IMG/VR virus record: IMGVR_UViG_3300028274_000006
Coordinates: 10,773-74,772 of that record
From: a virus
Strand: one strand, 5' to 3'
DNA: 64,000 nucleotides
A model generated the notes under the pieces. That model did no database searches, was not told where the DNA came from, and was given only the letters and a program-made list of their open reading frames with translations. Below are positions 18,601 to 63,595 of the stretch, one piece after another. Made by a program: the position numbers and the translations under genes. Every line of letters begins with the position of its first letter. The first letter of the stretch is position 1.

Positions 18601-20304
18601 ATGAAAGACATATCGGTAGTTCTTATTGCCAAAAACGAGGAGAAGACTCTCCCCAGACTCCTAGAGTCATTAAAGGGCATTAACGATATTGTCTTAGTAG
18701 ATACTGGATCCACAGACAACACGGTCAAGATTGCTAGAGATGCCGGTTGTAATGTTGAGGAGGTTGGAGACAGATTTAAGATAGGCCCCACTCAAGAACA
18801 AATAGATAGTTGGAAGAAAGACTACGGCATGGAGCCTAGCTTTAAGTTGGGAGAGAAATACTTTCATTATGCCAACGCCAGAAACTATGCGGCCTCATTA
18901 GCTAAGAACGATTGGGTCTTTAGTGCTGATTGTGACGAGGCGATAGATTGGGACTTAGATAAGGTTAGAGAAGCCATCCAAGATGAAGACCATTTAACTT
19001 ACAGGTTTTGCTATACACACAACCCAGATGGGAGTTGTGCCTTAGAGTTTCAGCAGTGCAAGATGTACCGCAAGTCTAAACTTAAATGGACTAAGTGGAT
19101 CCATGAGGTTTTAACTGAAATTGAGCCATGCAAACCTCCTAAGTATTGTGACTTTATTTATCACAACCACTGGCAGAACCCAGAGAGTAAGAGAGGACAC
19201 TACCTACCAGGCTTAGAACTATCCGTGCTAGATCAACCAAATGATGACAGGAATGTTTATTATTTAGGCCGTGAGTATCTATGGAGCAAGAAGTACCAGG
19301 AGGCGATTGTATTCTTAGAGAAGGCTTCTGAGTTATCACAATGGATGCCAGAGAAAAGCCAAGCTCATGTTTTTATGGGAGAGGCTTATGAACACCTGGG
19401 AGATATCAATAAAGCTATAGATTGTTATTTAAAGGCCATATCTGTTTACGGGCTAAGACGAGAGCCGTACTGGAGCTTAGGACAAGCCTATGAAAAGCTA
19501 AAGAGGCCAAGCGAAGCTAAGGTATGGTATCAGGCGGCTTTAGGTGTTGAATATAATCCACAAGGCTATTTAACTGAAATGACATATTATGAGTGGAGAA
19601 TACCAGATCAACTAGCCACTCTTTCAAGCGATAAAGAAGAATGCAAGAAGTGGTGGGTAGAATCGTTAAAACACAATCCAGACAAAAGAATTCTAAACAA
19701 CGTTAAGTATTTCTATGACACACCACTAATCTCAATCATTGTACCGGTGGTGCGTAAAGAAGGATTTAAGAGACTGACTGAATCAATCAAAGAGAACACC
19801 GTCTATCCTAACTATGAGATTATTTGCAGAGATGAGGATGGCACAGCCATCAAGAAGTTCAACGATGGTGTTAGGGAGTCTAAGGGCGAGTTTATTGTTT
19901 TCTTAGCAGATGACACTGAGGTAATGTTGGGGTGGCTAACTCAAGCATTTGTACACTTTAAAGAGAATCTTCATGGTAAGGGGATAGTCGTATTAAACGA
20001 TGAGGGATGGAAGGAAAGCATTGCCCATCACTTTCTAATTTCTAGAAACTGTTTAGACGATCTTGAGAACAACGAGATATTTTACAGAGGATACAACCAC
20101 TGTGGCGTTGATGTAGAACTAGCAGCTCAAATGAAGAAGCGGGGTCTCTATACTTACTGCAAGGATGCCGGGCTGAAGCACTATCACTATTGTCTATCTA
20201 CTAGGGGAGTTGAACCCAACAAAAGAGATGGGTGGTATAAAAAGGTAGACGCCTGGAGAGAAGACGATAAGAAGCTTCTAGATGAAAGACTGGAAAAGAT
20301 ATGA
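18601..20304 (+). CDS. GT2-TPR-GT2 glycosyltransferase
   Basis: IAKNEE, VDTGSTD, ARN, DCDE, IHE, then TPR repeats, then ISIIVP...FLADD. Confidence 0.9.
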   Translation: MKDISVVLIAKNEEKTLPRLLESLKGINDIVLVDTGSTDNTVKIARDAGCNVEEVGDRFKIGPTQEQIDSWKKDYGMEPSFKLGEKYFHYANARNYAASLAKNDWVFSADCDEAIDWDLDKVREAIQDEDHLTYRFCYTHNPDGSCALEFQQCKMYRKSKLKWTKWIHEVLTEIEPCKPPKYCDFIYHNHWQNPESKRGHYLPGLELSVLDQPNDDRNVYYLGREYLWSKKYQEAIVFLEKASELSQWMPEKSQAHVFMGEAYEHLGDINKAIDCYLKAISVYGLRREPYWSLGQAYEKLKRPSEAKVWYQAALGVEYNPQGYLTEMTYYEWRIPDQLATLSSDKEECKKWWVESLKHNPDKRILNNVKYFYDTPLISIIVPVVRKEGFKRLTESIKENTVYPNYEIICRDEDGTAIKKFNDGVRESKGEFIVFLADDTEVMLGWLTQAFVHFKENLHGKGIVVLNDEGWKESIAHHFLISRNCLDDLENNEIFYRGYNHCGVDVELAAQMKKRGLYTYCKDAGLKHYHYCLSTRGVEPNKRDGWYKKVDAWREDDKKLLDERLEKI

Positions 20305-24746: not shown

Positions 24747-24929
24747 ATGAACAAAACCAACCCAGAAAGTAGACCAATAAAAAAATATCAAGTTTGGCAA
24801 AGAGAACATAGTAGCACTTGGTATTTCAATGAGTTTGATTCGTTGAAAGAAGCCATAGAGTCTGAAAGATATGGTGATTTTTTTATTACTGCATTAGTTA
24901 ATTACGAAGTTAAGGAGAGAAATGAATAA
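24747..24929 (+). CDS. Hypothetical protein
   Basis: Coupled to the next ORF. Confidence 0.5.
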   Translation: MNKTNPESRPIKKYQVWQREHSSTWYFNEFDSLKEAIESERYGDFFITALVNYEVKERNE

Positions 24930-25209
24930 GACTAATTGGAGAGAAGCATTTGAAGAATTAGTAAGAAAGGGAGAGTTTTCTTATTATCCTGGTGAGGGAT
25001 TGAAGGAATTAAATAGAGAAAACCTGTTTAACTTCATAGAATCTCTCCTACAAGAACAGAAGGCAGAACTAAGAGATAAGGTGTCGGGGATGAGTTGCGA
25101 TTTATGCGGTGAAGAAAATAAGATGTGGGATAATAAGTTAGAGAAGATGATCCCTTGCGATGGATTTAAGCACAAAGTCTTATCATTAATAAACAAGGAG
25201 AAGAAATGA
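24922..25209 (+). CDS. Hypothetical protein
   Basis: WREAFEE...FIESLL segment; RBS present. Confidence 0.6.
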   Translation: MNKTNWREAFEELVRKGEFSYYPGEGLKELNRENLFNFIESLLQEQKAELRDKVSGMSCDLCGEENKMWDNKLEKMIPCDGFKHKVLSLINKEKK

Positions 25210-25964: not shown

Positions 25965-26116
25965 ACCAACTTGAAAAACACTTAGAGAAACTACGCCAGG
26001 ATTGGAAACGCTATCCCTCTCGTAGAAAAGCAATAGAGATAATAGCTAAGAACTTAAAGAAGAAGCAACCAAGAAAACTTATAGACGATGTAAAGGAAAC
26101 GCTGCTATAATGACTA

Positions 26117-26193
26117 CAGCCGCCGCAGGTTCTCTCCAGATACTTCAGGCGGCTTCTAAAGAAGGGCGATTCGGGCAGGGTCGTCCTTTTTTA
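26117..26193 (+). ncRNA. Putative small RNA (two hairpins, own promoter and terminator)
   Basis: TGCTATAAT at 26103; 24-nt core identical to 62764-62787; covarying stem; T-run. Confidence 0.7.
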
Positions 26194-26209: not shown

Positions 26210-26238
26210 TTGACAGTTGTAAACATATACCTTATACT
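26210..26238 (+). promoter_or_regulatory. Strong early promoter with GTAAACA operator-like motif
   Basis: TTGACA-N17-TATACT. Confidence 0.8.
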
Positions 26239-26271
26239 ACAATTAGTAATAAACATAAAAGGAGAGAACTT

Positions 26272-26415
26272 ATGTCAATACCTATGAACGGAGACTGCTA
26301 CCAAGACTTTAATAAAGTAGAGACTGCTGAACCAGACGATACTTGTTATGAGGACTGGAAGTTTGAGCAAGAATACGAACCAGTAATAGCTACAATTTAT
26401 GGGGAGGACTGCTAA
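26272..26415 (+). CDS. Small acidic early protein (47 aa, not in ORF track)
   Basis: MSIPMNGDCYQDFN, homologous to 63443; strong RBS. Confidence 0.7.
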   Translation: MSIPMNGDCYQDFNKVETAEPDDTCYEDWKFEQEYEPVIATIYGEDC

Positions 26416-26561
26416 TGAAAACTCAACTAGAAATAGCCATTGAAAACCTAGATGAAGCGTTAGACTCATTTGATAGCGAAGTAGATAAGATTAAGAGCTT
26501 AGTAGCATCTTCTCTAATTTATTTAAGAGAATACAAGCACTATGAAGAAAGGAATGAATAA
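26415..26561 (+). CDS. Small early protein (48 aa)
   Basis: KTQLEIAIE...YLREYK, homologous to 63589. Confidence 0.75.
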   Translation: MKTQLEIAIENLDEALDSFDSEVDKIKSLVASSLIYLREYKHYEERNE

Positions 26562-26695
26562 TGTCTATATCAAGATGCCAATATTGTGACACAACTTACG
26601 ATCAAGATTTTAACGCAGAGCATGAGGAAGAGTGCGAGATGGAAACTCAGGAAGAACACGAAGAAGTTTGTGAAGGATGGTTATTAGATAAATAG
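26561..26695 (+). CDS. Small acidic C2HC-type protein (44 aa)
   Basis: MSISRCQYC...HEEEC, homologous to 63735. Confidence 0.75.
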   Translation: MSISRCQYCDTTYDQDFNAEHEEECEMETQEEHEEVCEGWLLDK

Positions 26696-26700
26696 GAGAA

Positions 26701-26826
26701 ATTATGAGAGATTTTACTAGAAAACAACTCAAAGAAATGAGCAGAACAAAGCTAGTTGATATTGCATATAAAGCTATTCAAAAACAACGCCGCATGAATA
26801 GAGTTATGTTTTATGATGTTCCAAAA
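26701..26826 (+). repeat. Identical direct repeat of 63875-64000
   Basis: Base-for-base match by eye; near-identity extends back to ~26621/63795. Confidence 0.9.
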
Positions 26827-27048
26827 GAAATAATCCAAGAGTTATTCCAAGAATCATTTAATTATAAATATAAGAGAGATGAGTTTTTTGCTGGGATGAG
26901 ATTTATTGAGGAATATGGCAAAAGATGTGTTGATGAATTAAATGAAATAAATGATTGGGAAGAGTATGAGGATGTTAAAGAATCATGGGGTTATGCAAAT
27001 TGGTATAAATCATTAAGAGTGAGTTACCCAAATATAAATGATAAATAA
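26704..27048 (+). CDS. Hypothetical early protein
   Basis: RBS present; 5' part repeated at 63878. Confidence 0.75.
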   Translation: MRDFTRKQLKEMSRTKLVDIAYKAIQKQRRMNRVMFYDVPKEIIQELFQESFNYKYKRDEFFAGMRFIEEYGKRCVDELNEINDWEEYEDVKESWGYANWYKSLRVSYPNINDK

Positions 27049-27094
27049 CGAAGATAAAGAACTTATTAATAAATCAATAGAAGGAGACAACTAT

Positions 27095-27424
27095 ATGTCT
27101 AAAGATTTTACCGAGGCTAACTATGTAATCAGCTTCATTAACGGACAACCTGGATTAGTGGTAAGAGGAGAAATGCCAGCAGAGATAGAGGAAAGAATGG
27201 AAGCTATACTTCCCTACTTCAAGAAGTTTAGAACCGCAGTAGAGAAGGCAGGTGCTAGTAAATCAGATGCACCTAAAACCAGAGGCATGATGGTTAAGTG
27301 TGAGAAGTGTGGATCAGGAATGGATCTTAGATCAGGCTACTCAAACAAAACCAAAAAGAACTGGAGTGGATACTTCTGTCCTAATAGCACAGATGATGAT
27401 AAACACCCCGTGGTATGGGCGTAA
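27095..27424 (+). CDS. Protein with C-terminal Zn-ribbon
   Basis: CEKCGSGM...WSGYFCP; AAGGAG RBS. Confidence 0.65.
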   Translation: MSKDFTEANYVISFINGQPGLVVRGEMPAEIEERMEAILPYFKKFRTAVEKAGASKSDAPKTRGMMVKCEKCGSGMDLRSGYSNKTKKNWSGYFCPNSTDDDKHPVVWA

Positions 27425-27432
27425 AGGACAAT

Positions 27433-27621
27433 ATGATTAATACAAAAACATGGGTGCCTATCAACGTACTAAGCAAGAGAACAGGTATAAGCCGACAATG
27501 GCTAACTAAGAAGGCTAAGCAGGGAGTAATAAGAACAACTAAGCCTTTTGAGGAATCAACACTCAAGTACTACAACTTAGAAGATGCAATGAAACATTTT
27601 GATGTAGTTGACACTAAGTAA
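27433..27621 (+). CDS. Small HTH (excisionase/MerR-like) DNA-binding protein
   Basis: LSKRTGISRQWLTKKAKQGVI. Confidence 0.6.
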   Translation: MINTKTWVPINVLSKRTGISRQWLTKKAKQGVIRTTKPFEESTLKYYNLEDAMKHFDVVDTK

Positions 27622-27636
27622 ACAACGTGCTTAAAT
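27608..27636 (+). promoter_or_regulatory. Promoter with GTAAACA motif
   Basis: TTGACA-N17-TTAAAT with TG extension. Confidence 0.6.
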
Positions 27637-27716
27637 AAACATAACCTGAACAAAAAAGAAACGTGCGGAAACTCAGACACAAGCAGGTGGACCAGGTTAC
27701 AAAAGGAGAGAACAAA

Positions 27717-28244
27717 ATGAAAGCCAAAACAAGAATTAAAAAAAGGAGCAGAGATGCCAAAGGCAGATTCACCATTATGTCGTGGAAAGACAGGTTGGTT
27801 GCCCTCACTATTTTGTTGGGTACTATGGGGTGGGGTTATCAGCTTCATATTAATCGTAGTGTTCCTAGTGAATGTGGCACTCCTATCATTGAAGTTAGAG
27901 AAGTTAGTGCATCAGAATCAACACCAGATTTATACGTTCCACCCTCAACAGTCCTTAAGCAGATGAACCTACGCCCTGGGCTAATGAGTCGTATCAAAAA
28001 CGTCTTTGGAGAGGGATGGACTTATGCTGCTGAGCTAATTTGGAGAGAGTCCTCTTTTAATGAGTTTGCCATTAATCCTACTAGTGGAGCTTGTGGACTA
28101 GCCCAAGCCCTACCTTGCGGGAAAATGGAGTGTAACTTAGAGGATATAGACTGTCAGTTAGAGTGGATTAAAAACTATACAGATGAAAGATATGGAGGTG
28201 CAGAGAACGCACTACTCTTTCATACGAAAGTAGGATGGTACTAA
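27717..28244 (+). CDS. Membrane-anchored lytic transglycosylase (SLT-like)
   Basis: TM segment then RESSFN, AINPTSGACGLAQAL, YxxxRYG and GWY. Confidence 0.85.
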   Translation: MKAKTRIKKRSRDAKGRFTIMSWKDRLVALTILLGTMGWGYQLHINRSVPSECGTPIIEVREVSASESTPDLYVPPSTVLKQMNLRPGLMSRIKNVFGEGWTYAAELIWRESSFNEFAINPTSGACGLAQALPCGKMECNLEDIDCQLEWIKNYTDERYGGAENALLFHTKVGWY

Positions 28245-36418: not shown

Positions 36419-36701
36419 GTTGGAACGCCTGCTAAAACAAACAAACCCTCGTTATAGAATTAGACAGCGTGGGTTTAATCATGTCGCTGGAATCTTCCTT
36501 GGAAATGAGTTTATGCTCACTGTCACTAAGGGACACATCCCCCTCAATTCATATAGAATGGTAGCTCAAACAAATGACAGGCTTAAAGAGAGAATCATTA
36601 AGCGTGGTCGTGCTGATGCTTTAAGAATCCTCAATCGTCGTCGTAAGTTAGGAAGAAAAGAGTCTATAAAGATTAAATGGGGGAAGAATGCCAAAGATTA
36701 G
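36405..36701 (+). CDS. Basic hypothetical protein
   Basis: Paralog of 2109-2405. Confidence 0.75.
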   Translation: MNLNKLERLLKQTNPRYRIRQRGFNHVAGIFLGNEFMLTVTKGHIPLNSYRMVAQTNDRLKERIIKRGRADALRILNRRRKLGRKESIKIKWGKNAKD

Positions 36702-38094
36702 CTGTATTATATCAACCTATAACAGAGCAGATCATTTTTTGCCAAAGGCAATAGACTCAGTTTTGTCTCAGACGTTTAGCGACTGGGAATTGGTCATTGT
36801 AGACGACTCAAGCACAGACAATACCAAAAAAGTAGTAAACTCCTATCAAGACGACCGCATTAAATACCTCAAAACCGGCTCCAATTCTGGAAGTGATACT
36901 AAGCCTAAGAACATTGGTACTATAAAATCAACTGGGGAGTATATTTGCTACTTAGATGACGATGTGCAGTACCGACCCAACCACTTTGAGCTATTAAGTA
37001 AAGAGTTGGACAAAGGCGAGGTAGATATTGTGTATGGTGATATGTGGATTAAACCCAAAGAAGAACCAGGAATTGCTAGGGACTTTGATGCACAGTTCCT
37101 TATGCTTAGAAACTTCATAGACACTTCAGCAGCGATGATGAAACGTGAGTGTATGTTTGAGATTGGCGGTTGGGATGAGACTCTGCCAAAGTTTGTTGAT
37201 TGGAATGTTTGGGTGAGAATGCTTAAAGCAGGATTTAAGTTTAAGAGAATTCACGAGTTTACCTTTGACTACTATATTCACGAAGATACCAAATCTCAGA
37301 GGGTTAGGACTGAGATGTACCTACATCCAAAGCTAGGGATGTTGTTTGTTCCCACTTTTAGTCCAAGTGGATGCTATATACGGCTGCCCTATTTGAACAA
37401 AGACGACTCCGTTATTAGGGTAGCCATATTTACCATTCACTACAACAGATTGGATTACTCTAAGCAGTCTTACTTTGAGATGGAGGAAACAGCGGGGTAT
37501 AAGTTTGATTGGTTTTGTAGAGACAACGGAGATGATGGAACTATTAAATGGTTAAAAAATGAGACTAACGCTATCTTAGATGCTAAGAAGCCGACTAAGA
37601 ATCTAGGAATCACTAAATCCAGCAATAAGCTAATAGATCTCATACAAGCTACCGATGATTATGACATTATTATAAAAGTGGATAACGACGTTGAGTTCCA
37701 GACTTACGGATGGTTGAAGGATATTGTGGATATGTGGAAAAGAAACCACATGATCTATATTTCCCCCTACGTTGAGGGATTAAAAGATAACCCAGGTGGA
37801 GCTAGAAGAATAGGATTTGGGATGGTCGGAGATGAATACATAGAAGTAACCAATCACATCGGTGGTATCTTTGCTGCCATTGATGCTAGAGCTTACAACG
37901 AGTTCAGGTGGTCAGATGAAATGTTACATGGGAATCAAGACGCAGAGGCAAGTATGGCTTTTAGGAAATTAAACTATATGCCCTGCTACTACCCAAAACA
38001 CAGGATAACTCACCGAGACGGAACTGAGGGTCAGCACAAGAAGTACAAAGAATACTTTGAAAAGAGGAAAGATGAAAAGACAACAAAAGCTTGA
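36688..38094 (+). CDS. GT2 glycosyltransferase, two domains (copy B)
   Basis: Paralog of 2392-3801. Confidence 0.9.
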   Translation: MPKISCIISTYNRADHFLPKAIDSVLSQTFSDWELVIVDDSSTDNTKKVVNSYQDDRIKYLKTGSNSGSDTKPKNIGTIKSTGEYICYLDDDVQYRPNHFELLSKELDKGEVDIVYGDMWIKPKEEPGIARDFDAQFLMLRNFIDTSAAMMKRECMFEIGGWDETLPKFVDWNVWVRMLKAGFKFKRIHEFTFDYYIHEDTKSQRVRTEMYLHPKLGMLFVPTFSPSGCYIRLPYLNKDDSVIRVAIFTIHYNRLDYSKQSYFEMEETAGYKFDWFCRDNGDDGTIKWLKNETNAILDAKKPTKNLGITKSSNKLIDLIQATDDYDIIIKVDNDVEFQTYGWLKDIVDMWKRNHMIYISPYVEGLKDNPGGARRIGFGMVGDEYIEVTNHIGGIFAAIDARAYNEFRWSDEMLHGNQDAEASMAFRKLNYMPCYYPKHRITHRDGTEGQHKKYKEYFEKRKDEKTTKA

Positions 38095-38284
38095 TTACCT
38101 CAAAGGTTTTCACCCAGATGGAGAATTGGTTAAAGAAAAGTTTGACGATGGAAAAGAATATTTTAGATATAAAGCAGAAAAACTAAAGAAATGGGATCCC
38201 ATAGGAGCAGACGAAGATTGTTGTCTGGATGATGCGGTTCTATTTACTAAAACGTTCTTAAATGAAAAAACACAAAGAGGATAA
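38072..38284 (+). CDS. Hypothetical protein
   Basis: Fills the gap in the operon and overlaps both neighbours. Confidence 0.45.
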   Translation: MKRQQKLDYLKGFHPDGELVKEKFDDGKEYFRYKAEKLKKWDPIGADEDCCLDDAVLFTKTFLNEKTQRG

Positions 38285-38780
38285 ATATCAATCTAGATAT
38301 TTAGCTCACCAGCTAAAAAAGAAGGAAGTTCTTAAGAGGATTATAGAGGAGCGTCACTCCACCAGAGAGTTCTCAGGGGAAGAGATAGATATTGAAACCA
38401 TTGAGTCTATCTTAAATAGTATTGAACATTGCCCTTCTAGTTGTGATAGACAGGCTATTAGCATCACCTTAATAGAAGATAGAGACTATAAAGACTTATT
38501 AGGAGGACTATTAGTTGGTGGAACAGGATGGATACACAGAGCAGATAAGATTCTTTTAATATTTGCCAATGCCGATGCTTACAAAGAGAAGTTGGTATTT
38601 ATGCCCTTCTTAGATGCTGGGGTGGTTATCTATCACCTCTACTTAATGGCTGAATACTTTGACCTCAAGGCTTGCTACGTTAATCCGAATATAAGAATCC
38701 ACAACCTCGCTGAGTTTCAGATAATGTTCGGTGATGGGATCTTTTGTGGAGCTATGGCGTTAGGATATGAAAAGAAATAA
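38262..38780 (+). CDS. Nitroreductase-family flavoprotein
   Basis: RHSTREF, PSSCDRQ, DAG...LYLMA...L.AC and ALGY motifs. Confidence 0.85.
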   Translation: MKKHKEDKYQSRYLAHQLKKKEVLKRIIEERHSTREFSGEEIDIETIESILNSIEHCPSSCDRQAISITLIEDRDYKDLLGGLLVGGTGWIHRADKILLIFANADAYKEKLVFMPFLDAGVVIYHLYLMAEYFDLKACYVNPNIRIHNLAEFQIMFGDGIFCGAMALGYEKK

Positions 38781-39453
38781 ATTAGTAGCAATCATGGGAT
38801 GGCGTTATGAGCCTGAGTGGATGGTTCGGGAAATGCACCACAACTTACTTCCCTGGGTTGATGACTTTGCAGTCTTAGACGATAGGGGCAGGAAAGACCT
38901 ATGGAGACATGAGGGTGAATACCGAAGAAAGCTGAGATCAAAGGCTAGAAAGATGAAGGCAGATTGGGTTCTGGTCACCTCACCAGACGAGAGATGGGAG
39001 AAGAACGCAGGAGAGGTCATTAGACCCCTAATAGATGACAACAAAAGGAAAGTAATATATCAGTTTAATCTCAAGGAAATGTGGGATCCGTACCATTACC
39101 GAGTAGATGGTATCTGGGGTAGGAAAGTACGCAGAAGGCTTTATCCTCTACTACCTAATCAGAAGATGGCTTATCAATCTATCCAATGCCCCAGTTTCCC
39201 ACAGAACGAGGACTATAAAGTAGAGCACGTTGATGTTAATATCTATCATCTCAAGATGATGTCTAGAGAGAATAGGAGAATGAGGGCTAAAGTATTTAAG
39301 AAGCTAGATGAGGATAATAAGTTTCAAGGGATAGGATATGACTATTTAGCAGACGAGAGAGGGGTAGAGCTAGAAGCAGTCCTAAAAGACAGAGAGTTCT
39401 TTCCCAAGGTAACACAAGAATATAAGTTTGAAGTACCAGAGCATTTATTATGA
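38767..39453 (+). CDS. GT-A-like glycosyltransferase (atypical DxD)
   Basis: VLDD, ADWVLVTSPDERW and IYHL motifs. Confidence 0.6.
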   Translation: MKRNKLVAIMGWRYEPEWMVREMHHNLLPWVDDFAVLDDRGRKDLWRHEGEYRRKLRSKARKMKADWVLVTSPDERWEKNAGEVIRPLIDDNKRKVIYQFNLKEMWDPYHYRVDGIWGRKVRRRLYPLLPNQKMAYQSIQCPSFPQNEDYKVEHVDVNIYHLKMMSRENRRMRAKVFKKLDEDNKFQGIGYDYLADERGVELEAVLKDREFFPKVTQEYKFEVPEHLL

Positions 39454-40274
39454 CATTCTTACTAACAGCTCACTTTGCTGACTTGTTCAGGGGAACGGAG
39501 AGGTTTAACTATATCTTAGCTAAGTACCTTAGCAATGAGGGTCACGACGTTTATTTCTTCAGTCACAAGCATGGGGGGTTCTCTAAGTCTATAGCGGAGT
39601 ACGCTACTATCTTGGAAGAGCCTGGAATAATGGAGTTTGACCAAATTATATCTTCTCACAATGTCTGCTATAAAGATGTGATGCACTTGAGCAAGAATAG
39701 GTTGTTTATTTGTCACGGCATACTTAGCAACTTAGATGTTCCACCTGGAGATTGCCCTTCAGTAGCCGTATCGGAAGAGGCGATGATTGAGTACGGATGT
39801 GATGGGGTGATGAAGAACCCTGTGGACATGGACTTCTTTTACCCCGAGGAGAAGAGGGGGGACACCATCGTTTACCTAGACTCCAACCCCACAGAGATAA
39901 TGCTTAAAATCCTAGAAAAGAATAATGAGAATTATGAGGTTGTTGGTGCGGGAGGTAAAGATGAGGATATATCTAAGAAGGTTAGAAGTGCCCGCATGGT
40001 AATAGCAGGAGCAAGAGGAGCATTGGAGGCTATGGCTTGTAAGGTTCCAGTGTTGGTTTATAAGAGCACAGGCTTTGATGGATATTGTGGAGAGTATTGG
40101 GAGCTACAGAAAAACAACTTCTCTGGTAGACGCTACTCCAAAGACCTAACATTAGACACCTTTAGATATGAGATGGCTAAGATCAACGATGAGGACACAG
40201 AGGATTGTTATGAGTATGTTAAAGATCAGCACGACATTAAGAGTATTATGTACAGACTGAGGCAATATTTATGA
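39450..40274 (+). CDS. GT-B (GT4-like) glycosyltransferase
   Basis: GTE, GHDV, NPVD and RGALEAMACKVPV motifs. Confidence 0.75.
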   Translation: MTFLLTAHFADLFRGTERFNYILAKYLSNEGHDVYFFSHKHGGFSKSIAEYATILEEPGIMEFDQIISSHNVCYKDVMHLSKNRLFICHGILSNLDVPPGDCPSVAVSEEAMIEYGCDGVMKNPVDMDFFYPEEKRGDTIVYLDSNPTEIMLKILEKNNENYEVVGAGGKDEDISKKVRSARMVIAGARGALEAMACKVPVLVYKSTGFDGYCGEYWELQKNNFSGRRYSKDLTLDTFRYEMAKINDEDTEDCYEYVKDQHDIKSIMYRLRQYL

Positions 40275-41122
40275 AAATATTATTAACTGGTTCAGAGGGA
40301 TTTATTGGCTCACATCTTAAAAATAGATTAGAGAGCGAAGGTCATTTAACACACTGTATTGATAGGAAGTTAGGAAGTGATTTAATAGATCCAGGAACGA
40401 TTAAAGATTACTTAGACGTTAAGGTGGATTATATAGTTCACTTAGCTGGTGACTGTTCTACCCCCAAGAGCCTGAAAGACCCAGCTACATCGTTTAAGGA
40501 TAATTTGTTAGCTACATTCAATGTTTGTCAGTTAGCGGGTAAGAATAAGATCCCACTTCTGTTTACCTCCACCTGTAAGACAGAGCCAGGACCAGACGGC
40601 TCTAGAACACCCTATGGAACAGCCAAGTTATGTGCAGAGGAATGGGTTAAAGAGTATAAGTTCTCTTACGACGTACCAATCATTATTAACAAACCAGGAA
40701 CCATCTATGGACCAGGACAAGATGCTTCACCTGAGTCTGGGTGGCTGAGTTGGTTTATAGAAGCCAGTATGACCGATCAGGAGATTACTATTTACGGAGA
40801 TGGTAATCAGAGCAGAGATGTGCTCTATATCTCTGACTACATTGACCTACTGATGGATCAACTCAACAACTTTGATAAGTATGAGGGTAAGACCTACGGC
40901 GTCGGTGGAGGAAAGAAGAACGAGATCAGCCTACTAAGGGCATTAGAGTTACTTGAGTACAAAAATTATACATTTACTAACCCAAGGAAGGGAGATGTGA
41001 CGAGGTTTGTTTCAGACAATTTTTACGTAGAATCGGTAAATGGGTGGAGACCAAAAGTATCATATTTAGAAGGGATAACTAGAACAAAGGAGTACTATGA
41101 GAATCTTAATAACGGGAGCTAG
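40271..41122 (+). CDS. NDP-sugar epimerase, CDP-tyvelose 2-epimerase-like
   Basis: TGSEGFIG, PYGTAK, GWLSWF, IYGDGNQSRDVL and GGGKKNEISLL motifs. Confidence 0.8.
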   Translation: MKILLTGSEGFIGSHLKNRLESEGHLTHCIDRKLGSDLIDPGTIKDYLDVKVDYIVHLAGDCSTPKSLKDPATSFKDNLLATFNVCQLAGKNKIPLLFTSTCKTEPGPDGSRTPYGTAKLCAEEWVKEYKFSYDVPIIINKPGTIYGPGQDASPESGWLSWFIEASMTDQEITIYGDGNQSRDVLYISDYIDLLMDQLNNFDKYEGKTYGVGGGKKNEISLLRALELLEYKNYTFTNPRKGDVTRFVSDNFYVESVNGWRPKVSYLEGITRTKEYYENLNNGS

Positions 41123-41981
41123 TGGCTTCATCGGCAGTCATACAGTAGACGAGGCTAGGAGCCGTGGTCTTGAGGTAGTTTCCTTTGATAGAGCGGTGGG
41201 GGAGACTGAGAGAGGCAGGGGAGAGGTGTTTTTAGGTGATATTACCGACTACCATGCAGTAAGAGAAGCAGTTAATCACGCAGATTATGCAATAAATCTT
41301 GCAGGAATACTTGGTACTCAAGAAACCATAAATGACCCCATACCAAGCATCCAGGTGAACACCATTGGAGCACTAAACTTCTTTAAGGCTTGTATTCCAA
41401 CAAAATTCCACCAGGTTAAAGCAGTACAGATCGGGGTGGGTAACTACTGGATGAACAACTCATACTCTATAAGTAAGAACTCAGCGGTTAGGTTTTCTCA
41501 GATGTACAATAAGGAACACGGGACTAAGATTGCAGCAGTCAGAGCATTGAATGCCTATGGTCCTGGTCAGAAGACCAAGCCAGTCCGTAAGATTATTCCC
41601 ACATTCATAATGAGAGCCTTGAGGAATGAAGATATAGAAATATATGGAGATGGTGAACAAGTAATGGATATGATTTATGTTAAAGACCTAGCTAGAATCT
41701 TAGTAGATGCTGCTGTGTTAGATCATGGCAACTACACCACTCCATTTGAGGCTGGTACTAGCAGACATACTACTGTGAACTGGATTGCCGAGAAGGTGAT
41801 TGAGGCATCAGGGAGCAAGTCTAAGGTAGTTCATTCGCCAATGAGACCAGGTGAGGATAGGGGAGCTGTAGTGGTAGCTGATCCAGAGACACTAGAACCA
41901 CTTGGATATCAAGACATGGCTTTATTTGAGGATAAGATTGTAGACACTATTAAGTGGTATAAGGAAAACCATGAGGTTTAG
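41097..41981 (+). CDS. NAD-dependent epimerase/dehydratase
   Basis: TGASGFIG, YSISK, NAYGPGQ and YGDGEQ motifs. Confidence 0.9.
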   Translation: MRILITGASGFIGSHTVDEARSRGLEVVSFDRAVGETERGRGEVFLGDITDYHAVREAVNHADYAINLAGILGTQETINDPIPSIQVNTIGALNFFKACIPTKFHQVKAVQIGVGNYWMNNSYSISKNSAVRFSQMYNKEHGTKIAAVRALNAYGPGQKTKPVRKIIPTFIMRALRNEDIEIYGDGEQVMDMIYVKDLARILVDAAVLDHGNYTTPFEAGTSRHTTVNWIAEKVIEASGSKSKVVHSPMRPGEDRGAVVVADPETLEPLGYQDMALFEDKIVDTIKWYKENHEV

Positions 41982-42669
41982 TGTTATTACTAGCTGTTAT
42001 AACCAGTTAGAACAAATTAAAAAGACTAGGGAGTATCTGAATAAACAGACCTTTATAGACTTTGAGTGGATTCTAGCTGATGACGGCTCTAGTGATGGCA
42101 CTGATAGGTGGGCTAAGAGAAACACTGATAAATATGTATGGCAACATGACGTAGGTTATAGATTAACTAAGATCCTTAACAAAGCCGCTGCGGTAGCTGA
42201 AGGAGAATACTTAGTCTGGATAATGGGGGACTCTTATCCTAAAGAAGACTTTTTAGAGAAGGTGAGTGAATACATAACTTCATCTATGGTTGCTACAGGA
42301 GTAAGGGTTAATGTAAAAGATGGTGGGGCGGTATCGTTTGACTGGAGAGTTAGTGATGTTGATTTAACAGGTGTGAATTGTATCAGAGTAAAGGGCAAAT
42401 CTCCTTGGAAACTAATGACTCTTAACTCAATGATAATGCCTAGAAGTGTTTATAAGAGGATGGGCGGTATTTACTCTGGTTATGATGAGGGATACGGAAG
42501 AATGGATTGGGACATGGCTGCATGGGCTCATTACTGCGGATATGAGCTAACCTGGATTCCACAGGCTATAATCTACCACGAGGATCACGAAGGAAAGAAG
42601 GATACAGTTAATAATGTAGACCTATTTAATAAAAGACTAAAGGAGTTTCAAGATGCTACTCTATGCTGA
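41971..42669 (+). CDS. GT2 glycosyltransferase
   Basis: ADDGSSD, WQHDVGYRL and YGRMD motifs. Confidence 0.85.
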   Translation: MRFSVITSCYNQLEQIKKTREYLNKQTFIDFEWILADDGSSDGTDRWAKRNTDKYVWQHDVGYRLTKILNKAAAVAEGEYLVWIMGDSYPKEDFLEKVSEYITSSMVATGVRVNVKDGGAVSFDWRVSDVDLTGVNCIRVKGKSPWKLMTLNSMIMPRSVYKRMGGIYSGYDEGYGRMDWDMAAWAHYCGYELTWIPQAIIYHEDHEGKKDTVNNVDLFNKRLKEFQDATLC

Positions 42670-43780
42670 GGCTACATTTGGAGAAGAAGAACAAGACGCT
42701 GTTCTAGATGTATTTACTAATGGTTGGTTAAGTGGTGGTAAAAAGACTAGCGAGTTTGAAGAGAAGCTAGCTAAGTGGTGGGGGGTTAAGTACGCAGTAG
42801 CAGTGAACTCTGGATCTAGTGCTAACTTTGTAGCCACTCAAGCTCTTGATCTGCCAAAGGGAAGTGAAGTACTAACAATGGCTCTCTCTTTCCCAACTAC
42901 GGTAAGCCCCATTCTTTACATGGGATTAAAACCTGTTTACTTAGATTGTGATCTCCCTTCATATACAGTGAAGTTGGATGATAGTGCAGTAACAAAGGAC
43001 ACTAAGGCGTTGATCTTTGCTCATACTCTAGGAAATATAGTTAATATGGATGAGGTGATGTCATTTGTAAAGAAGCATGACCTTAAACTACTTGAGGACT
43101 GCTGTGATGCTATGGGTGGTAATTGGAAGGGAAAGCCAGTTGGAACATTCGGAGATATGGCTACAGTATCATTCTACCCAGCACACCACATGACTACCTT
43201 TGGAGAGGGTGGAGCTATCTTAACTAACGACTATACCCTATACAACGCTTGTAGGAGCATTAGGGACTGGGGCAAGGCTTGTGTTTGCAAGTTTGCAGAA
43301 CATGGATGTAAGGCTAGATTTGCTAACCCTCCCTACGATCATAGATACTTTTATACCAGACTAGGATTAAACTTTAAGATGACTGAGGCTAGTGCAGCCT
43401 TTGGTACAGTTCAGCTAGATAGAATAGATGATTTTGTTAGAAGTAGAAAAATTAACTTTGACTACCTATATCACGCCCTAAAAGATGTGGCTATAGTTAC
43501 CACTCCGATAGAAGGAGCAGACCCATCTTGGTTTGCTTTCCCCATCTATCACCCAAATAAGCTAAGGGCGACTGAATACCTTGAGAAACATGGAGTACAA
43601 ACCAGGTCTTTGTTTTCAGGAAACATCCTTAAACACCCAGCCTATAAAGGATCAGGGAGATCAGTGCCAGTACCTAACTCAGATAAGGTGTTAGACAACG
43701 TGTTCTTTGTGGGAGTTGGTCCAAAACTAACAATAGATGATTTAGATTACATGATAAAAAGGATTAAAGAAACTCTATGA
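42653..43780 (+). CDS. DegT-family enzyme, E1/RfbH(DdhC)-like NDP-4-keto-6-deoxyhexose 3-dehydrase
   Basis: NSGSSAN, EDCCDA, SFYPAHH (His at the catalytic Lys position), RDWGKACVC...C. Confidence 0.8.
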   Translation: MLLYAEATFGEEEQDAVLDVFTNGWLSGGKKTSEFEEKLAKWWGVKYAVAVNSGSSANFVATQALDLPKGSEVLTMALSFPTTVSPILYMGLKPVYLDCDLPSYTVKLDDSAVTKDTKALIFAHTLGNIVNMDEVMSFVKKHDLKLLEDCCDAMGGNWKGKPVGTFGDMATVSFYPAHHMTTFGEGGAILTNDYTLYNACRSIRDWGKACVCKFAEHGCKARFANPPYDHRYFYTRLGLNFKMTEASAAFGTVQLDRIDDFVRSRKINFDYLYHALKDVAIVTTPIEGADPSWFAFPIYHPNKLRATEYLEKHGVQTRSLFSGNILKHPAYKGSGRSVPVPNSDKVLDNVFFVGVGPKLTIDDLDYMIKRIKETL

Positions 43781-44481
43781 AGGTCTCTATAGTCACTGGA
43801 TCATATAACGCAGTAGACATACACCCCAAGATGTATAAGGCATTCCTTGAGCAGGAAGAGTTAATCCACGAATGGATTATTTGTGATGATGGATCAACTG
43901 ATGGATCTATTGATCTTCTAATGGAGTACAGTAAACATCCTAAGATTAGTGCTTATTGGCAGTCAAATAATGGGATTAGGCTTTCAGCTTCCCTCAACAA
44001 TGGGCTTAGAAGAGCTACTGGCGATGTTCTTTTTATTTTAATGGGAGATACATACTTAAGACCTAACACCATGGAGATGGTACACGAGAATTATATTAGG
44101 GGAACTGCTGGATGCGGACTAAAGGTAAACGTAGATGAAAACGAGAAGTTTCATTCTTTTGATTGGAGATATGTAAGAGAGTACTTGGGTAAAAATGTTC
44201 ATATTGATGATGATGATGCTTACTCTTTTCTTACTGGAAATATTATGTTGGTGGAGAAAAAACACATGGAAAAGGCTGGTTGGTATAATGAGGATTACTG
44301 TAACGGATATGGTAAGGATGACTGGAGTGTCTTTTTAAGACTGTGGTCTATTAATGTTCCTCTGTATCAGTATAATGGTATACAGGCAAACCATCGTTGG
44401 CATGGTGAGGGAGGAGCAGATTGTGAAAAAAATACCAAATTATTCAAGGAGGAATATGAAAATATCATGCGACTACGATGA
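43777..44481 (+). CDS. GT2 glycosyltransferase
   Basis: CDDGSTD and YGKDD motifs; related to 41971. Confidence 0.85.
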   Translation: MKVSIVTGSYNAVDIHPKMYKAFLEQEELIHEWIICDDGSTDGSIDLLMEYSKHPKISAYWQSNNGIRLSASLNNGLRRATGDVLFILMGDTYLRPNTMEMVHENYIRGTAGCGLKVNVDENEKFHSFDWRYVREYLGKNVHIDDDDAYSFLTGNIMLVEKKHMEKAGWYNEDYCNGYGKDDWSVFLRLWSINVPLYQYNGIQANHRWHGEGGADCEKNTKLFKEEYENIMRLR

Positions 44482-45049
44482 TTTCAGTCCCATGAACCAC
44501 AGATTTGATATCTTAGATAAGATTAGGGAGAGATACCCAGATTTTAAGGTAACCATGTTTACCGTTCCCTGGGAGATAAGACTTTCTCCCAGCACTAAGG
44601 GAACTCCTATTACTCACGATAGATATAAGCCCTGGGTAGATAAAGTAATAGAGGCGGTAGACGAGGGTTGGATGGATATTTCCCTTCATGGACTTACTCA
44701 CGCTCCAAGAGAAATGGAGAACTTAACCTATCAAGAAGTGAAGAATCGTATTCTTACAGGACAAAAGATGTTTGAGAATGTAGGGATTAAGATTAATGAT
44801 TTATTCAAAGCTCCTCAATGGCTTATTAGTGAGGATGGCAAAAAAGCTGTAGAGGACTTAGGACTCAAGCTGATGGAAGATCATTATTACAACTGGAACC
44901 TCAAGGATGATAAACCAAAGAAGAAGAAAAAACTGATAGCCCATGGTCATGTTCAAGACGTGATGGGAAACGGCTTAGATGAGTCTTTTTTCAGGCTAAG
45001 TAAAACCCCCACCGATGCAGAGTGGCTACATCTAAAGGAGATGATATGA
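44456..45049 (+). CDS. Polysaccharide deacetylase-like protein (copy B)
   Basis: Paralog of 5318-5908. Confidence 0.75.
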   Translation: MKISCDYDDFSPMNHRFDILDKIRERYPDFKVTMFTVPWEIRLSPSTKGTPITHDRYKPWVDKVIEAVDEGWMDISLHGLTHAPREMENLTYQEVKNRILTGQKMFENVGIKINDLFKAPQWLISEDGKKAVEDLGLKLMEDHYYNWNLKDDKPKKKKKLIAHGHVQDVMGNGLDESFFRLSKTPTDAEWLHLKEMI

Positions 45050-45081
45050 AAATAATAGCTTTCAGTAATGATATGTGTTAA
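45046..45081 (+). pseudogene. Orphaned original 5' end of the GT4 gene (MKIIAFSNDMC*)
   Basis: Matches the start of 5905 (MKIVAFSND). Confidence 0.7.
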
Positions 45082-45084
45082 TAT

Positions 45085-61948: not shown

Positions 61949-61978
61949 TTGACACATTGTAAACAGTATGGGTATACT
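61949..61978 (+). promoter_or_regulatory. Promoter with GTAAACA motif
   Basis: TTGACA-N18-TATACT. Confidence 0.75.
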
Positions 61979-61995
61979 TAGATAAAGGAGAGAAT

Positions 61996-62259
61996 ATGTT
62001 TACCTATCACGCTAAAACAACTTACAACGGGTGGAAGATTGGTGAGGAGAACTACAATCTATATATAGGAGTGCCTAAGAAGTATCTGTTTGGTAAAAAC
62101 GGAATCCCTCGCACTATAGAGATAGAACACAATGGTAGGATAGAGAGGGTAGGTATAGAGGAAAGCGTAAAGGAAGAAGAACAAATCCAACAACTAAACA
62201 CTCAAGCTAAACACATATTAGTTTACTTCTTATGGGAGGAGAGAGATGAAAATATTTAG
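61996..62259 (+). CDS. Conserved hypothetical protein
   Basis: Paralog of 25376. Confidence 0.75.
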   Translation: MFTYHAKTTYNGWKIGEENYNLYIGVPKKYLFGKNGIPRTIEIEHNGRIERVGIEESVKEEEQIQQLNTQAKHILVYFLWEERDENI

Positions 62260-62578: not shown

Positions 62579-62749
62579 AGCTAAACTAAAAGAGATAGAG
62601 AAACAAGCTAAATCAGCTTCAGAGGGTAAGAAGCGACAACTCCGTATGCAGTATATGGTTATTAGGAATCAGATTAGAACTCTTGAGAACAAGCCTAAAA
62701 CCTTCTCAGATAATGTAGTAGACTCCCTATTTTAGTGCTATACTATTTA

Positions 62750-62850
62750 TACCCGCCAATGATGTTCTCTCCAGATACTTCAGGCGGGTTCTAAGAAAGC
62801 GATTCGTAAGAAGCGGCTTAAGTCGTGGGCAGGACGGGTCGCTTTCTTTG
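62750..62850 (+). ncRNA. Putative small RNA (copy B)
   Basis: TGCTATACT at 62736; homolog of 26117-26193. Confidence 0.7.
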
Positions 62851-62932
62851 TGTTAAAATGAATGTAATATCAGTTGTGACCAGCAATCCCCGTTTACCAC
62901 AACTGAGCGGGGATTTTTGGTAGAAAGACAGC

Positions 62933-63385
62933 ATGGCAAGAAAATTAATAAATGAAGTTGGCAATAAGTATGGATTACTTACTGTAATAAAAAGAAATAA
63001 TAAAAAGTGGGTTTGTGTTTGTGAGTGTGGAGAATTTGCTTTTTATGCAGGACATGACTTAAGGAGAGGAAAAAGAAAGTCTTGCGGATGTATTGGTTGT
63101 TTTAAAGTGAAACATGGTATGTCAAATACTCCAACCTATCACACCTGGGAGAACATGAAGCTCCGTTGCTATAATGATAATAGAGACAACTATAATAGAT
63201 ATGGTGGCAGAGGAATTAGTGTTTGTGGTCGTTGGAAAGATAGTTTTAAGAACTTCTACGAGGATATGGGAAAAAGACCAAACAATAAGACAATAGACAG
63301 AATTGACGTTAATAAGAACTACACTCCAGATAACTGCCGATGGTCTACTCCGAAAGAGCAAAGGGCAAATCAAAGACCCTATTGA
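62933..63385 (+). CDS. HNH-type homing endonuclease-like protein
   Basis: WVCVCECG, YGGRGISVC and TIDRIDVNKNYTPDNCRW motifs; absent from copy A. Confidence 0.85.
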   Translation: MARKLINEVGNKYGLLTVIKRNNKKWVCVCECGEFAFYAGHDLRRGKRKSCGCIGCFKVKHGMSNTPTYHTWENMKLRCYNDNRDNYNRYGGRGISVCGRWKDSFKNFYEDMGKRPNNKTIDRIDVNKNYTPDNCRWSTPKEQRANQRPY

Positions 63386-63410
63386 CAATGTGTAAACACC
63401 ATAGTATATT
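63382..63410 (+). promoter_or_regulatory. Early promoter with GTAAACA motif
   Basis: TTGACA-N17-TATATT, homologous to 26210. Confidence 0.75.
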
Positions 63411-63442
63411 TAGGTTAATATAAACATAAGAAGGAGAGACTT

Positions 63443-63595
63443 ATGAGCATACCACTAAGCGGAGACTGCTACGCAGACTTCAACCCCAAAGTAAAAACAG
63501 AACCTATTGTGAATGATGTTGAAGACCAGCAATGGGAAGATACGATGGAAGATGAGAGGTTTGAAGCACAACCATGGGAGGCTGAATCATGTTAA
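63443..63595 (+). CDS. Small acidic early protein
   Basis: Homolog of 26272. Confidence 0.7.
   Translation: MSIPLSGDCYADFNPKVKTEPIVNDVEDQQWEDTMEDERFEAQPWEAESC

What the first reader, a model, noticed from the sequence alone, without database searches (positions are those of the whole stretch)
26103..26193. Conserved sRNA whose loop is complementary to phage ribosome-binding sites
Seen: extended -10, hairpin 1 (agccgcc/ggcggct versus acccgcc/ggcgggt, a compensatory change), an identical 24-mer GTTCTCTCCAGATACTTCAGGCGG, and a terminator hairpin, in both copies amid diverged flanks. GTTCTCTCC is the exact reverse complement of GGAGAGAAC, which is the RBS of the first early gene (26261) and of the SLT gene (27705). 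GGAGAGAA also precedes 24922 and 61996. Inference: a trans-acting translational repressor of early genes, possibly acting as an RNA substitute for a repressor or as an antitoxin.
Basis: partly seen in the sequence, partly recalled or inferred. Interest (0 to 1): 0.75.

Follow-up and report, generated by a model that had tools for sequence, protein, structure and literature searches.

The report
Phage small RNA mirroring early ribosome sites
Three related marine phages carry a small RNA gene of about 75-105 nt. Its exposed hairpin loop keeps one fixed 9-letter stretch that is the exact complement of the ribosome-binding site of the phage's first early gene, so it probably turns early protein synthesis down, but no transcript or effect has been measured.

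Summary
At 26103-26193 and 62736-62854 there is an extended -10 promoter, a 7-bp GC hairpin that starts 6 nt after the -10, an identical 24-mer and a terminator hairpin.

One point needs correcting. These are not two copies in one genome. The 74.8-kb record is very probably an assembly chimera of two related ~37-kb seawater podophages, A and B, so the copies are orthologues.

A search anchored on a neighbouring protein, not on the RNA, found a third, diverged orthologue (C, locus L011):
- The stem keeps pairing through two compensatory changes.
- The terminator has a different sequence.
- The loop has changed everywhere except GUUCUCUCC, which is exactly the complement of the first early gene's RBS, GGAGAGAAC.

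Accessibility-corrected pairing ranks as best targets only genes within about 1.7 kb of the RNA gene. These are mostly the first cistrons behind consensus sigma-70 promoters. Late genes score no better than a generic Shine-Dalgarno sequence.

There is no Rfam family, no relative in isolated phages, and no RNA data.

Best reading (about 0.5): a trans-acting anti-RBS sRNA that represses early leader cistrons, working like P1/P7 c4 RNA. The repressor-substitute and antitoxin ideas are unsupported.

This scan has noted similar anti-RBS hairpin RNAs in other phages on other DNA.

The parts
26103..26111 (+). Extended -10 promoter of sRNA-A (TGcTATAAT). A weak -35-like TAGACG lies at 26082-26087.
   Evidence: 10 of 12 matches, with TG. 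The -10 and its 6-nt distance to the stem are kept in B and C. In C the DNA upstream of the -10 is an unrelated HNH gene.
26118..26192 (+). Predicted sRNA-A, about 75 nt: 5' hairpin, short A/U-rich spacer, terminator hairpin with U6 tail
   Evidence: Folds (-37.8 kcal/mol, z -6.1). The ends are inferred from the promoter and the U-tract, not measured.
26118..26154 (+). Hairpin 1 of A: stem 26118-26124 with 26148-26154, and a 23-nt loop
   Evidence: 7 of 7 pairs are kept in A, B and C, with 2 pairs changed on both sides and 1 changed from A-U to G-U.
26129..26137 (+). Seed GUUCUCUCC, the only loop block that is invariant in A, B and C
26157..26193 (+). Terminator hairpin of A with a T6 run (26187-26192). 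The conserved GGGCAGG (26173-26179) sits at its tip.
   Evidence: The stem sequence differs in C but pairing is kept.
26210..26238 (+). Early promoter of A (TTGACA-17-TATACT)
26261..26269 (+). RBS GGAGAGAAC of A's first early gene (26272-26415, a 47-aa acidic protein). It is a 9-nt complement of the seed and the top-ranked target in A.
   Evidence: -10.1 kcal/mol after accessibility correction
24914..24921 (+). RBS GGAGAGAA of the A gene 24922-25209 (8-nt complement; internal to an operon)
62736..62744 (+). Extended -10 promoter of sRNA-B (TGcTATACT)
62751..62854 (+). Predicted sRNA-B, about 104 nt. Hairpin 1 is 62751-62757 with 62783-62789; seed 62764-62772; terminator hairpin 62793-62848, with GGGCAGG at 62827-62833.
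62933..63385 (+). HNH endonuclease gene inserted between sRNA-B and the early promoter. It is not part of the RNA, but it shows the RNA gene is a separate module.
   Evidence: phrog_374, E 1.5e-55. In C the homologue lies upstream of the sRNA.
63382..63410 (+). Early promoter of B (TTGACA-17-TATATT)
63433..63440 (+). RBS GGAGAGAC of B's first early gene (63443-63595). One A is missing, so only 7 nt pair.
   Evidence: -9.5 kcal/mol
27608..27714 (+). Phage B: a promoter of the same type (TTGACA-N4-GTAAACA), a leader of about 80 nt, and the RBS GGAGAGAACA (27705-27714) of a membrane/SLT-like gene (27717-28244). This is a 10-nt complement of sRNA-B and the top-ranked target in B.
   Evidence: (-13.8 kcal/mol)
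61949..61994 (+). Phage B: a promoter of the same type and the RBS GGAGAGAA (61987-61994) of the 87-aa gene 61996-62259
   Evidence: -11.3 kcal/mol

Best explanation
This is an independent small-RNA gene found in a small group of ~37-kb marine podophages.

Proposed mechanism (inferred):
- Host sigma-70 RNA polymerase starts at an extended -10 promoter, exactly at the base of a GC-rich 5' hairpin, and stops at an intrinsic terminator. The product is a stable RNA of about 75-105 nt.
- The large hairpin loop displays the fixed 9-mer GUUCUCUCC.
- This 9-mer pairs in trans with the Shine-Dalgarno sequence and spacer, (G)GAGAGAAC(C/A), of the leader cistrons of the phage's early transcripts. The main targets are the first early gene just downstream and a membrane-protein gene about 1.5 kb further on.
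- Pairing blocks 30S binding and lowers translation of those cistrons, and possibly mRNA stability, as the RNA accumulates during infection.

Shown directly: the sequence anatomy, the conservation and covariation, and the complementarity with its ranking.
Inferred only: transcription, the RNA ends, pairing in vivo, and the direction of the effect.
For: 1. Module conservation. The -10, its 6-nt distance to the stem, hairpin 1, the spacer and the terminator are present in A, B and C. The flanks differ, including an HNH gene downstream of the RNA in B and upstream of it in C.
2. Hairpin 1. All 7 pairs are kept in all three sequences, with 2 compensatory pairs and 1 G-U. Sliding the partner strand destroys the pairing.
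3. Terminator. C has a different stem sequence (CAGGGGA/UCCCCUG) but the same shape.
4. Unbiased test. C was found through a neighbouring protein, not through the RNA sequence. Its loop differs on both sides of the 9-mer: gaaca against gcag or aatgat on the 5' side, and gatctcca against agatacttca on the 3' side. GUUCUCUCC itself is intact, and C's first early RBS is GGAGAGAAC.
5. Target ranking by hybridisation plus accessibility, loop only. In A the top targets are the genes at 26272, 26415, 24922 and G000 788. In B they are 27717, 61996, 63443 and 62246. All lie within about 1.7 kb of the RNA gene. The next-best sites, at -6.6 or weaker, pair only with a generic GGAGA-type Shine-Dalgarno core.
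6. Four promoters share TTGACA-N3/4-GTAAACA, and each is followed by a GGAGAGA-type RBS although their leaders differ.
7. The base 5' of the seed matches target 2 in each phage. In A it is G, opposite C (GAGAGAACC at G000 777-785, where the GGAG core itself is lost). In B it is U, opposite A (GGAGAGAACA).
8. Chance. Shuffled loops reach the observed number of TIR matches with P 0.006-0.01 in A. Only about 3% of GGAG+5-mer extensions hit any TIR.
Against: - No transcript evidence of any kind exists.
- Only three sequences are known, two of them identical in the loop, so covariation rests on few events.
- Seed and RBS are both invariant, so there is no clean seed-target covariation. There is only one flanking pair.
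- B's first early RBS has lost one A, leaving 7 nt of pairing.
- A 9-nt duplex is modest, and a naive genome-wide duplex scan does not rank the RBS sites near the top.
- The statistics for B alone are weak (P 0.03-0.14).
- GGAGAGA may simply be a strong Shine-Dalgarno sequence favoured by early genes.
- The complementarity was noticed post hoc.
- The conserved GGGCAGG in the terminator tip is not explained by this model.
Confidence: 0.5

Rival explanations
1. A real phage sRNA, but its main targets are host mRNAs. The anti-SD-like seed, or the conserved GGGCAGG, would act on host transcripts, and the match to phage RBSs would be secondary or coincidental.
For: Many described phage sRNAs act on host transcripts (review PMC12197685). 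A second conserved, exposed motif, GGGCAGG, has no complement on the phage + strand in the window. A CUCC-containing seed would fit many host Shine-Dalgarno sites.
Against: The host is unknown, so nothing positive can be shown. The 5-nt extension beyond the Shine-Dalgarno core matches the adjacent phage gene, which only about 3% of extensions would do for any TIR. The best phage targets cluster in the early region.
Confidence: 0.15
2. No free sRNA exists. The block is boundary punctuation, that is, terminator hairpins ending the upstream operon plus a fortuitous -10-like sequence. Alternatively it is a cis-acting leader whose read-through transcript folds its 5' loop onto the downstream RBS.
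For: The block sits at the end of a same-strand gene run, directly before the strong early promoter. In A and C the RBS lies only about 125-135 nt downstream, so cis pairing is geometrically possible.
Against: Hairpin 1 has a 20-25-nt loop and no U-tract, so it is not a terminator. The -10 and its exact 6-nt spacing are kept in three different upstream contexts. In B about 660 nt, including an HNH gene, a further terminator-like hairpin and the early promoter, separate loop and RBS. The second target lies about 1.5 kb away, behind its own promoter.
Confidence: 0.12
3. The conserved hairpin acts through a protein or at the DNA level rather than by base pairing. Possibilities are a binding site or decoy for an RNA-binding protein, an RNA that modifies RNA polymerase like HK022 put, a target of the neighbouring HNH homing endonuclease, or a packaging or replication site.
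For: The 24-nt identity between A and B goes beyond what a 9-nt seed needs. HNH endonuclease genes sit next to the element in 2 of 3 phages. The element lies at the late/early boundary, where genome ends or origins often lie. GGGCAGG(A) at a hairpin tip is reminiscent of GGA-type protein sites.
Against: C changes the rest of the loop and keeps only the anti-RBS 9-mer. Stems contain G-U pairs that exist only on the + strand RNA. A has GGG rather than GGA in the tip motif. No Rfam family, put-like or otherwise, matches.
Confidence: 0.1
4. An immunity or exclusion RNA. The sRNA made by a resident or first-infecting phage silences the early genes of superinfecting relatives that share the same RBS tag, analogous to P1/P7 c4 heteroimmunity. 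Its main role would not be to time the phage's own programme.
For: A, B and C co-occur in the same seawater samples at varying ratios and share an identical seed and near-identical early RBSs. c4 RNA works this way (PMC12197685).
Against: This is a variant of the best explanation, with the same mechanism and a different biological role. Among the proteins I scanned I recognised no integrase, repressor or other sign of a carried state. All three phages carry the same seed, so no heteroimmunity classes are visible.
Confidence: 0.1

Closest known systems
c4 antisense RNA of phages P1 and P7 (immI operon; Citron & Schuster 1990, as cited in PMC8198154; summary in PMC12197685)
   Same: It is a phage-encoded small RNA. 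It is encoded just upstream of its target on the same strand. Exposed loops pair in trans with the downstream phage mRNA around a ribosome-binding site and block translation.
   Different: There is no sequence or Rfam relationship. From my own knowledge, c4 is cut out of the operon transcript and uses two loops. This RNA has its own promoter and terminator, a single seed, probably several leader-RBS targets behind separate promoters, and sits in phages with no recognisable lysogeny genes.
Cuckoo / alpha-r14 / CcsR sRNAs of Alphaproteobacteria (PMC4615179)
   Same: Hairpins whose loops carry a fixed C/U-rich anti-Shine-Dalgarno-like motif, while the stems vary freely (abstract).
   Different: Those RNAs have 2-4 hairpins that all carry CCUCCUCCC, and they are chromosomal. 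This RNA has one loop with GUUCUCUCC and is phage-borne. It is not a member of that family.
Classical trans-encoded enterobacterial-type sRNAs (seed, A/U-rich stretch, Rho-independent terminator)
   Same: The overall build is the same: own promoter, 5' seed region, A/U-rich spacer (UUCUAAAG), and a terminator hairpin with a U-tail. The predicted action is at the RBS.
   Different: The seed sits in a closed hairpin loop rather than in a single-stranded 5' end. Dependence on a chaperone is unknown because the host is unknown.
T4 RegB and RegA early-mRNA shut-off (PMC3014915, listed; details from my own knowledge)
   Same: The logic is the same: early messages are switched off through their GGAG-type ribosome-binding sites.
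   Different: RegB and RegA are proteins, a nuclease and a repressor. Here an RNA would do the job.
Anti-RBS hairpin RNAs noted earlier in this scan in giant aquatic T4-like phages and an actinophage group (e1-6009796, e1-6042419 and others)
   Same: Phage RNA hairpin loops that complement a tag on early-gene ribosome-binding sites.
   Different: Those are AI notes that I did not check. They describe other phage lineages, other motifs, mostly multi-hairpin arrays behind an early ATPase gene, and many target genes. Here there is one hairpin, a small podophage and few targets.

Membership tests
Trans-encoded base-pairing sRNA (generic kind) | Own promoter and own intrinsic terminator bounding a short non-coding unit | tested here: met
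   The extended -10 is present in all three. A and B have the TGn form; in C the TG sits directly beside TATAAT. A hairpin with a U-rich tail is present in A, B and C. The ORF lists show no ORF of 35 aa or more (L011) or 40 aa or more (window) on the + strand inside it. This is sequence evidence only.
Trans-encoded base-pairing sRNA (generic kind) | A stable transcript of the predicted size is made | not testable with these tools
   No RNA run holds the sequence. The host is uncultured and unknown.
Trans-encoded base-pairing sRNA (generic kind) | A conserved, accessible seed complementary to target mRNAs | tested here: met
   The 9-mer is invariant in A, B and C while the rest of the loop varies. 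Opening it costs 3.7-5.7 kcal/mol, and the targets rank on top.
Trans-encoded base-pairing sRNA (generic kind) | Seed and target co-vary or are co-conserved across relatives | tested here: inconclusive
   They are co-conserved in A and C and weakened in B's first gene. One flanking pair co-varies with target 2 (G:C in A, U:A in B).
P1/P7 c4 antisense RNA | Sequence or structure homology to c4 | tested here: not met
   No Rfam family reaches even E=10 on the element. There are no blastn hits in 50,697 phage records.
P1/P7 c4 antisense RNA | Processed from the same transcript as its target, within an immunity operon that controls an antirepressor | tested here: not met
   The RNA has its own promoter and terminator, and a separate strong promoter drives the target. 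The first target is a 47-aa acidic protein with no family match.
Cuckoo / alpha-r14 sRNA family | 2-4 adjacent hairpins that each carry CCUCCUCCC in the loop (PMC4615179) | tested here: not met
   There is one seed hairpin with GUUCUCUCC, and the motif is absent.
RNA antitoxin (type I or type III) | Adjacent toxin gene: a small hydrophobic peptide overlapped by an antisense RNA, or a ToxN-like nuclease with a tandem repeat array | tested here: not met
   The RNA is not antisense to any gene. There are no tandem repeats. The adjacent gene product is acidic and soluble, with no family hit. The second target does encode a membrane protein, so a toxicity-limiting role cannot be excluded.

The most novel reading that the evidence does not exclude
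Self-targeting anti-RBS RNAs may be a general, undescribed way for phages to gate their early programme, and one that reaches down to ~37-kb podophages with no recognisable transcription regulators of their own. In this reading a single constitutively made hairpin RNA reads a short tag on the ribosome-binding sites of the first cistron of each host-polymerase early transcript. It would act as a timer for early shut-off, and at the same time as a cross-exclusion factor among the co-circulating relatives A, B and C, which share tag and seed.
Probability: 0.3. Interest if true: 0.7.

Novelty: new variant of a known kind. Interest (0 to 1): 0.55.

Why it matters
If confirmed, this would be a compact and easily testable case of a probably virulent phage using one small RNA, rather than a protein such as T4 RegA or RegB, to switch off its own early genes through a shared ribosome-site tag. 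It would add a marine podophage lineage to a pattern this scan has noted in unrelated phages. It also offers a minimal seed/tag pair (9 nt) that could be moved into reporter systems. In addition, the report corrects the public record: the '74.8-kb, 100% complete' virus is very probably two ~37-kb genomes joined by the assembler.

Tried and rejected
- Rfam: gathering thresholds on the whole window, then E<=10 on the element and on L011. No relevant match.
- tRNA/tmRNA scan: none.
- blastn of both regions against 50,697 phage records: no match.
- IMG/VR pattern scans with the 24-mer and with a degenerate seed-plus-stem pattern: nothing.
- A 20-mer in 185,579 prokaryote genomes: 3 hits, in Methanosarcinaceae, Calothrix and Bacillus. 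All lie inside unrelated sequence without the hairpin, and about 1 hit is expected by chance, so I rejected them.
- Relatives found through TerL (L003, L004) have a different early-region layout and no element.
- Distant relatives found through the 88-aa protein (L014, L015) have no element.
- Phage D's 36.4-kb contig breaks exactly around this region.
- A promoter-plus-RBS pattern in IMG/VR returned mostly an unrelated phage group with no anti-RBS sequence.
- The covariance model R1 finds only A, B and C.
- No RNA holder was listed among the sequencing runs.
- A whole-genome naive duplex scan, and a first accessibility scheme that let pairing run into the stems, were uninformative.
- The complement of GGGCAGG is absent from the + strand, so I dropped the idea of a second phage-directed seed.
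- A CsrA-sponge idea was dropped because A has GGG rather than GGA and there is only one site.

Full report
**What is there**

At 26103-26193 the + strand reads as follows:
- TGcTATAAT, an extended -10;
- 6 nt;
- AGCCGCC, a 23-nt loop, then GGCGGCU;
- the spacer UCUAAAG;
- a 9-16-bp hairpin ending in U6.

The same build recurs at 62736-62854 with TGcTATACT, ACCCGCC/GGCGGGU and a longer, branched terminator hairpin. The 24-mer GTTCTCTCCAGATACTTCAGGCGG is identical in both and occurs nowhere else; shuffles give 0. Both stretches fold far better than shuffled sequence, with z -6.1 and -4.0. GGAGAGAAC, the reverse complement of the first 9 nt of the 24-mer, occurs on the + strand only at 26261 and 27705. 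Each of those sites lies just before an ATG.

**The two 'copies' are orthologues in two phages**

The window is part of a 74,772-bp IMG/VR record. Self-comparison shows two collinear ~37-kb units that are 72-89% identical. The record's first bases align to position 37674 and its last bases to position 37598. The last 126 nt and the first ~143 nt are (near-)identical to the middle junction.

Public seawater runs add read evidence:
- A 412-nt unitig (26633-27044) has twice the depth of both flanks, and contigs break at it.
- The depth ratio of the two units varies between runs.
- In run X20 the unit-A-specific part has no cover, while one contig joins sRNA copy 2's upstream sequence, via 938 other letters, to 26559-27722.

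Unit B therefore closes on itself without A. The record is best read as a figure-eight assembly of two related ~37-kb phages: A (up to about 26900) and B (from there to 64000). PHROGs identifies terminase, portal, major head protein, a CHAP endolysin and many sugar-modifying enzymes. Among the proteins I scanned I recognised no integrase, repressor or replication protein. All genes lie on one strand. The habitat is seawater.

**A third, diverged orthologue**

The 88-aa protein encoded about 0.5 kb upstream has only five 90%-identity clusters among 5.8 billion proteins. A metagenome scan with that protein family, which does not depend on the RNA sequence, returned L011. I call this phage C; its protein is 79% identical.

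L011 carries, in order:
- TATAAT at 1540-1545;
- 6 nt;
- GCCCACC (1552-1558);
- the loop gaacaGTTCTCTCCgatctcca;
- GGTGGGT (1581-1587);
- a terminator hairpin with a different stem, CAGGGGA/UCCCCUG, and a U-rich tail;
- the early promoter TTGACA-17-TATACT;
- AAAAGGAGAGAACCATG.

Across A, B and C all 7 stem pairs are kept. Two pairs change on both sides (G-C to C-G, and G-C to A-U) and one changes to G-U. Sliding the 3' partner by 1-3 columns drops pairing from 100% to 24-57%.

Inside the loop the only invariant block is GUUCUCUCC. Its boundaries coincide with the complement of the first early gene's RBS.

The DNA upstream of the -10 in C is an HNH endonuclease gene. In B a 49%-identical HNH gene lies downstream of the RNA, and A has none. 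The conserved unit therefore runs from the -10 to the terminator, which is what an independent RNA gene looks like.

**Targets**

Four promoters share TTGACA-N3/4-GTAAACA (26210, 27608, 61949, 63382). An earlier scan note pointed to this, and I confirmed it. Each is followed by a GGAGAGA-type RBS, although the leaders differ in length and sequence. Phage A has a fifth, slightly different promoter (TTGACAACCGTAAAG) at G000 ~688. It precedes the gene at G000 788, whose RBS is UUAGAGAGAACCAAAUG.

I restricted pairing to the loop and added opening energies for both RNAs. The best targets were:

| Phage | Best targets (gene start) | Energy (kcal/mol) |
|---|---|---|
| A (73 start regions) | 26272, 26415, 24922, G000 788 | -10.1 to -8.8 |
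| B | 27717, 61996, 63443, 62246 | -13.8 to -8.9 |

In B, one ORF start (63155) that lies inside the HNH gene and is probably not a real start also scored in this range. The next-best sites in both phages, at -6.6 or weaker, pair only with a generic GGAGA-type Shine-Dalgarno core. All top targets lie within about 1.7 kb of the RNA gene, and none is a structural or lysis gene.

Target 2 sits at the same position in A and B, directly upstream of a conserved HTH gene. In both it encodes a protein with an N-terminal membrane segment, but the two proteins are not detectably homologous. In A its RBS has lost the GGAG core yet keeps 9 nt of complementarity by extending one base: GAGAGAACC pairs with GGUUCUCUC. 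In B it is GGAGAGAACA, which pairs with UGUUCUCUCC. So the base 5' of the seed (G in A, U in B) matches the target in each phage. This is one event only.

**How likely is chance?**

- Shuffled loops reach the observed number of 8- or 9-nt matches to start regions with P 0.006-0.01 in A and 0.03-0.14 in B.
- Given an anti-SD core, only about 3% of the 1,024 possible 5-nt extensions match any start region.
- A naive whole-genome duplex scan does not single out these sites, so a 9-nt duplex is modest in itself.

The stronger argument is evolutionary. Conservation in C is confined to exactly the complementary block.

**Mechanism proposed**

Host polymerase transcribes a 75-105-nt RNA that starts at the first base of the stem. 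A 5'-terminal stem and a terminator hairpin typically stabilise sRNAs (established knowledge). The loop seed pairs with the Shine-Dalgarno sequence and spacer of early leader cistrons and blocks initiation. As the RNA accumulates, early translation falls.

This works like P1/P7 c4 RNA, whose loops pair with the downstream ant-operon mRNA around a ribosome-binding site (PMC12197685, PMC8198154). In logic it also resembles T4 RegA/RegB shut-off.

It is not a member of the c4 family or the cuckoo family. It has no sequence or Rfam relationship to them, it has its own promoter and terminator, and it has one loop with a different motif (PMC4615179).

The ideas of an antitoxin or a repressor substitute have no support.

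**Unexplained**

GGGCAGG is conserved at the exposed tip of the terminator hairpin in A, B and C (26173-26179, 62827-62833, L011 1613-1619). It has no complement on the phage + strand.

**Limits**

- There are only three sequences and no RNA data, and the host is unknown.
- Covariance model R1 finds no further copies in 191 kb of held sequence.
- Earlier notes of this scan describe similar anti-RBS hairpin RNAs in other phage lineages. I used them as leads only and did not check them.

**Verdict**

| Claim | Estimated probability |
|---|---|
| Real, conserved small-RNA gene | about 0.8 |
| Anti-RBS repressor of early leader cistrons | about 0.5 |

This is a new variant of a known kind of regulator, of moderate interest.

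Noticed in passing
Whole record; junction at window 26633-27044: The 74,772-bp IMG/VR record, rated 100% complete, is very probably a figure-eight assembly chimera of two related ~37-kb phages that share a near-identical segment of about 350-410 nt. That segment has double depth, contigs break at it, and phage B occurs without phage A in run X20.
   Followed up: yes
Window 62933-63385 and L011 1074-1529: Free-standing HNH endonuclease genes (49% identical over 92 aligned residues) are inserted on opposite sides of the sRNA gene in phages B and C and are absent in A. Each is preceded by a similar hairpin of the form CCCxG...CxGGG followed by ATTTTT. The conserved sRNA region may be their homing target or a safe harbour.
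   Followed up: partly
Window 26173-26179, 62827-62833; L011 1613-1619: GGGCAGG is conserved and predicted unpaired at the tip of the terminator hairpin in all three variants, although the surrounding stems differ. No complementary CCUGCCC exists on the phage + strand in the window.
   Followed up: partly
Window 26210, 27608, 61949, 63382; G000 ~688: The early promoters share TTGACA-N3/4-GTAAA(C)A over the -35 box. The same motif with a GGAGAGAAT RBS and a TTG start recurs in an unrelated group of IMG/VR phages (L016, L017, L020, L021, L023, L025, L026).
   Followed up: partly
Window 26272-26415 and 63443-63595; L011 1714-: The first early gene encodes a 47-50-aa, very acidic, Cys-containing protein with no family match. 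A highly acidic first-expressed protein is reminiscent of DNA-mimic anti-restriction proteins. This was not tested.
   Followed up: no
Window 26704-27048: The 114-aa protein is identical in A and B, because it lies in the shared segment, and has no relative among 5.8 billion proteins.
   Followed up: partly
Window 36688-46630 and 18601-20304: For a ~37-kb phage there is an unusually large set of sugar-modifying genes: several GT2 glycosyltransferases, two nucleotide-sugar epimerases, an aminotransferase and a GT2-TPR protein.
   Followed up: no
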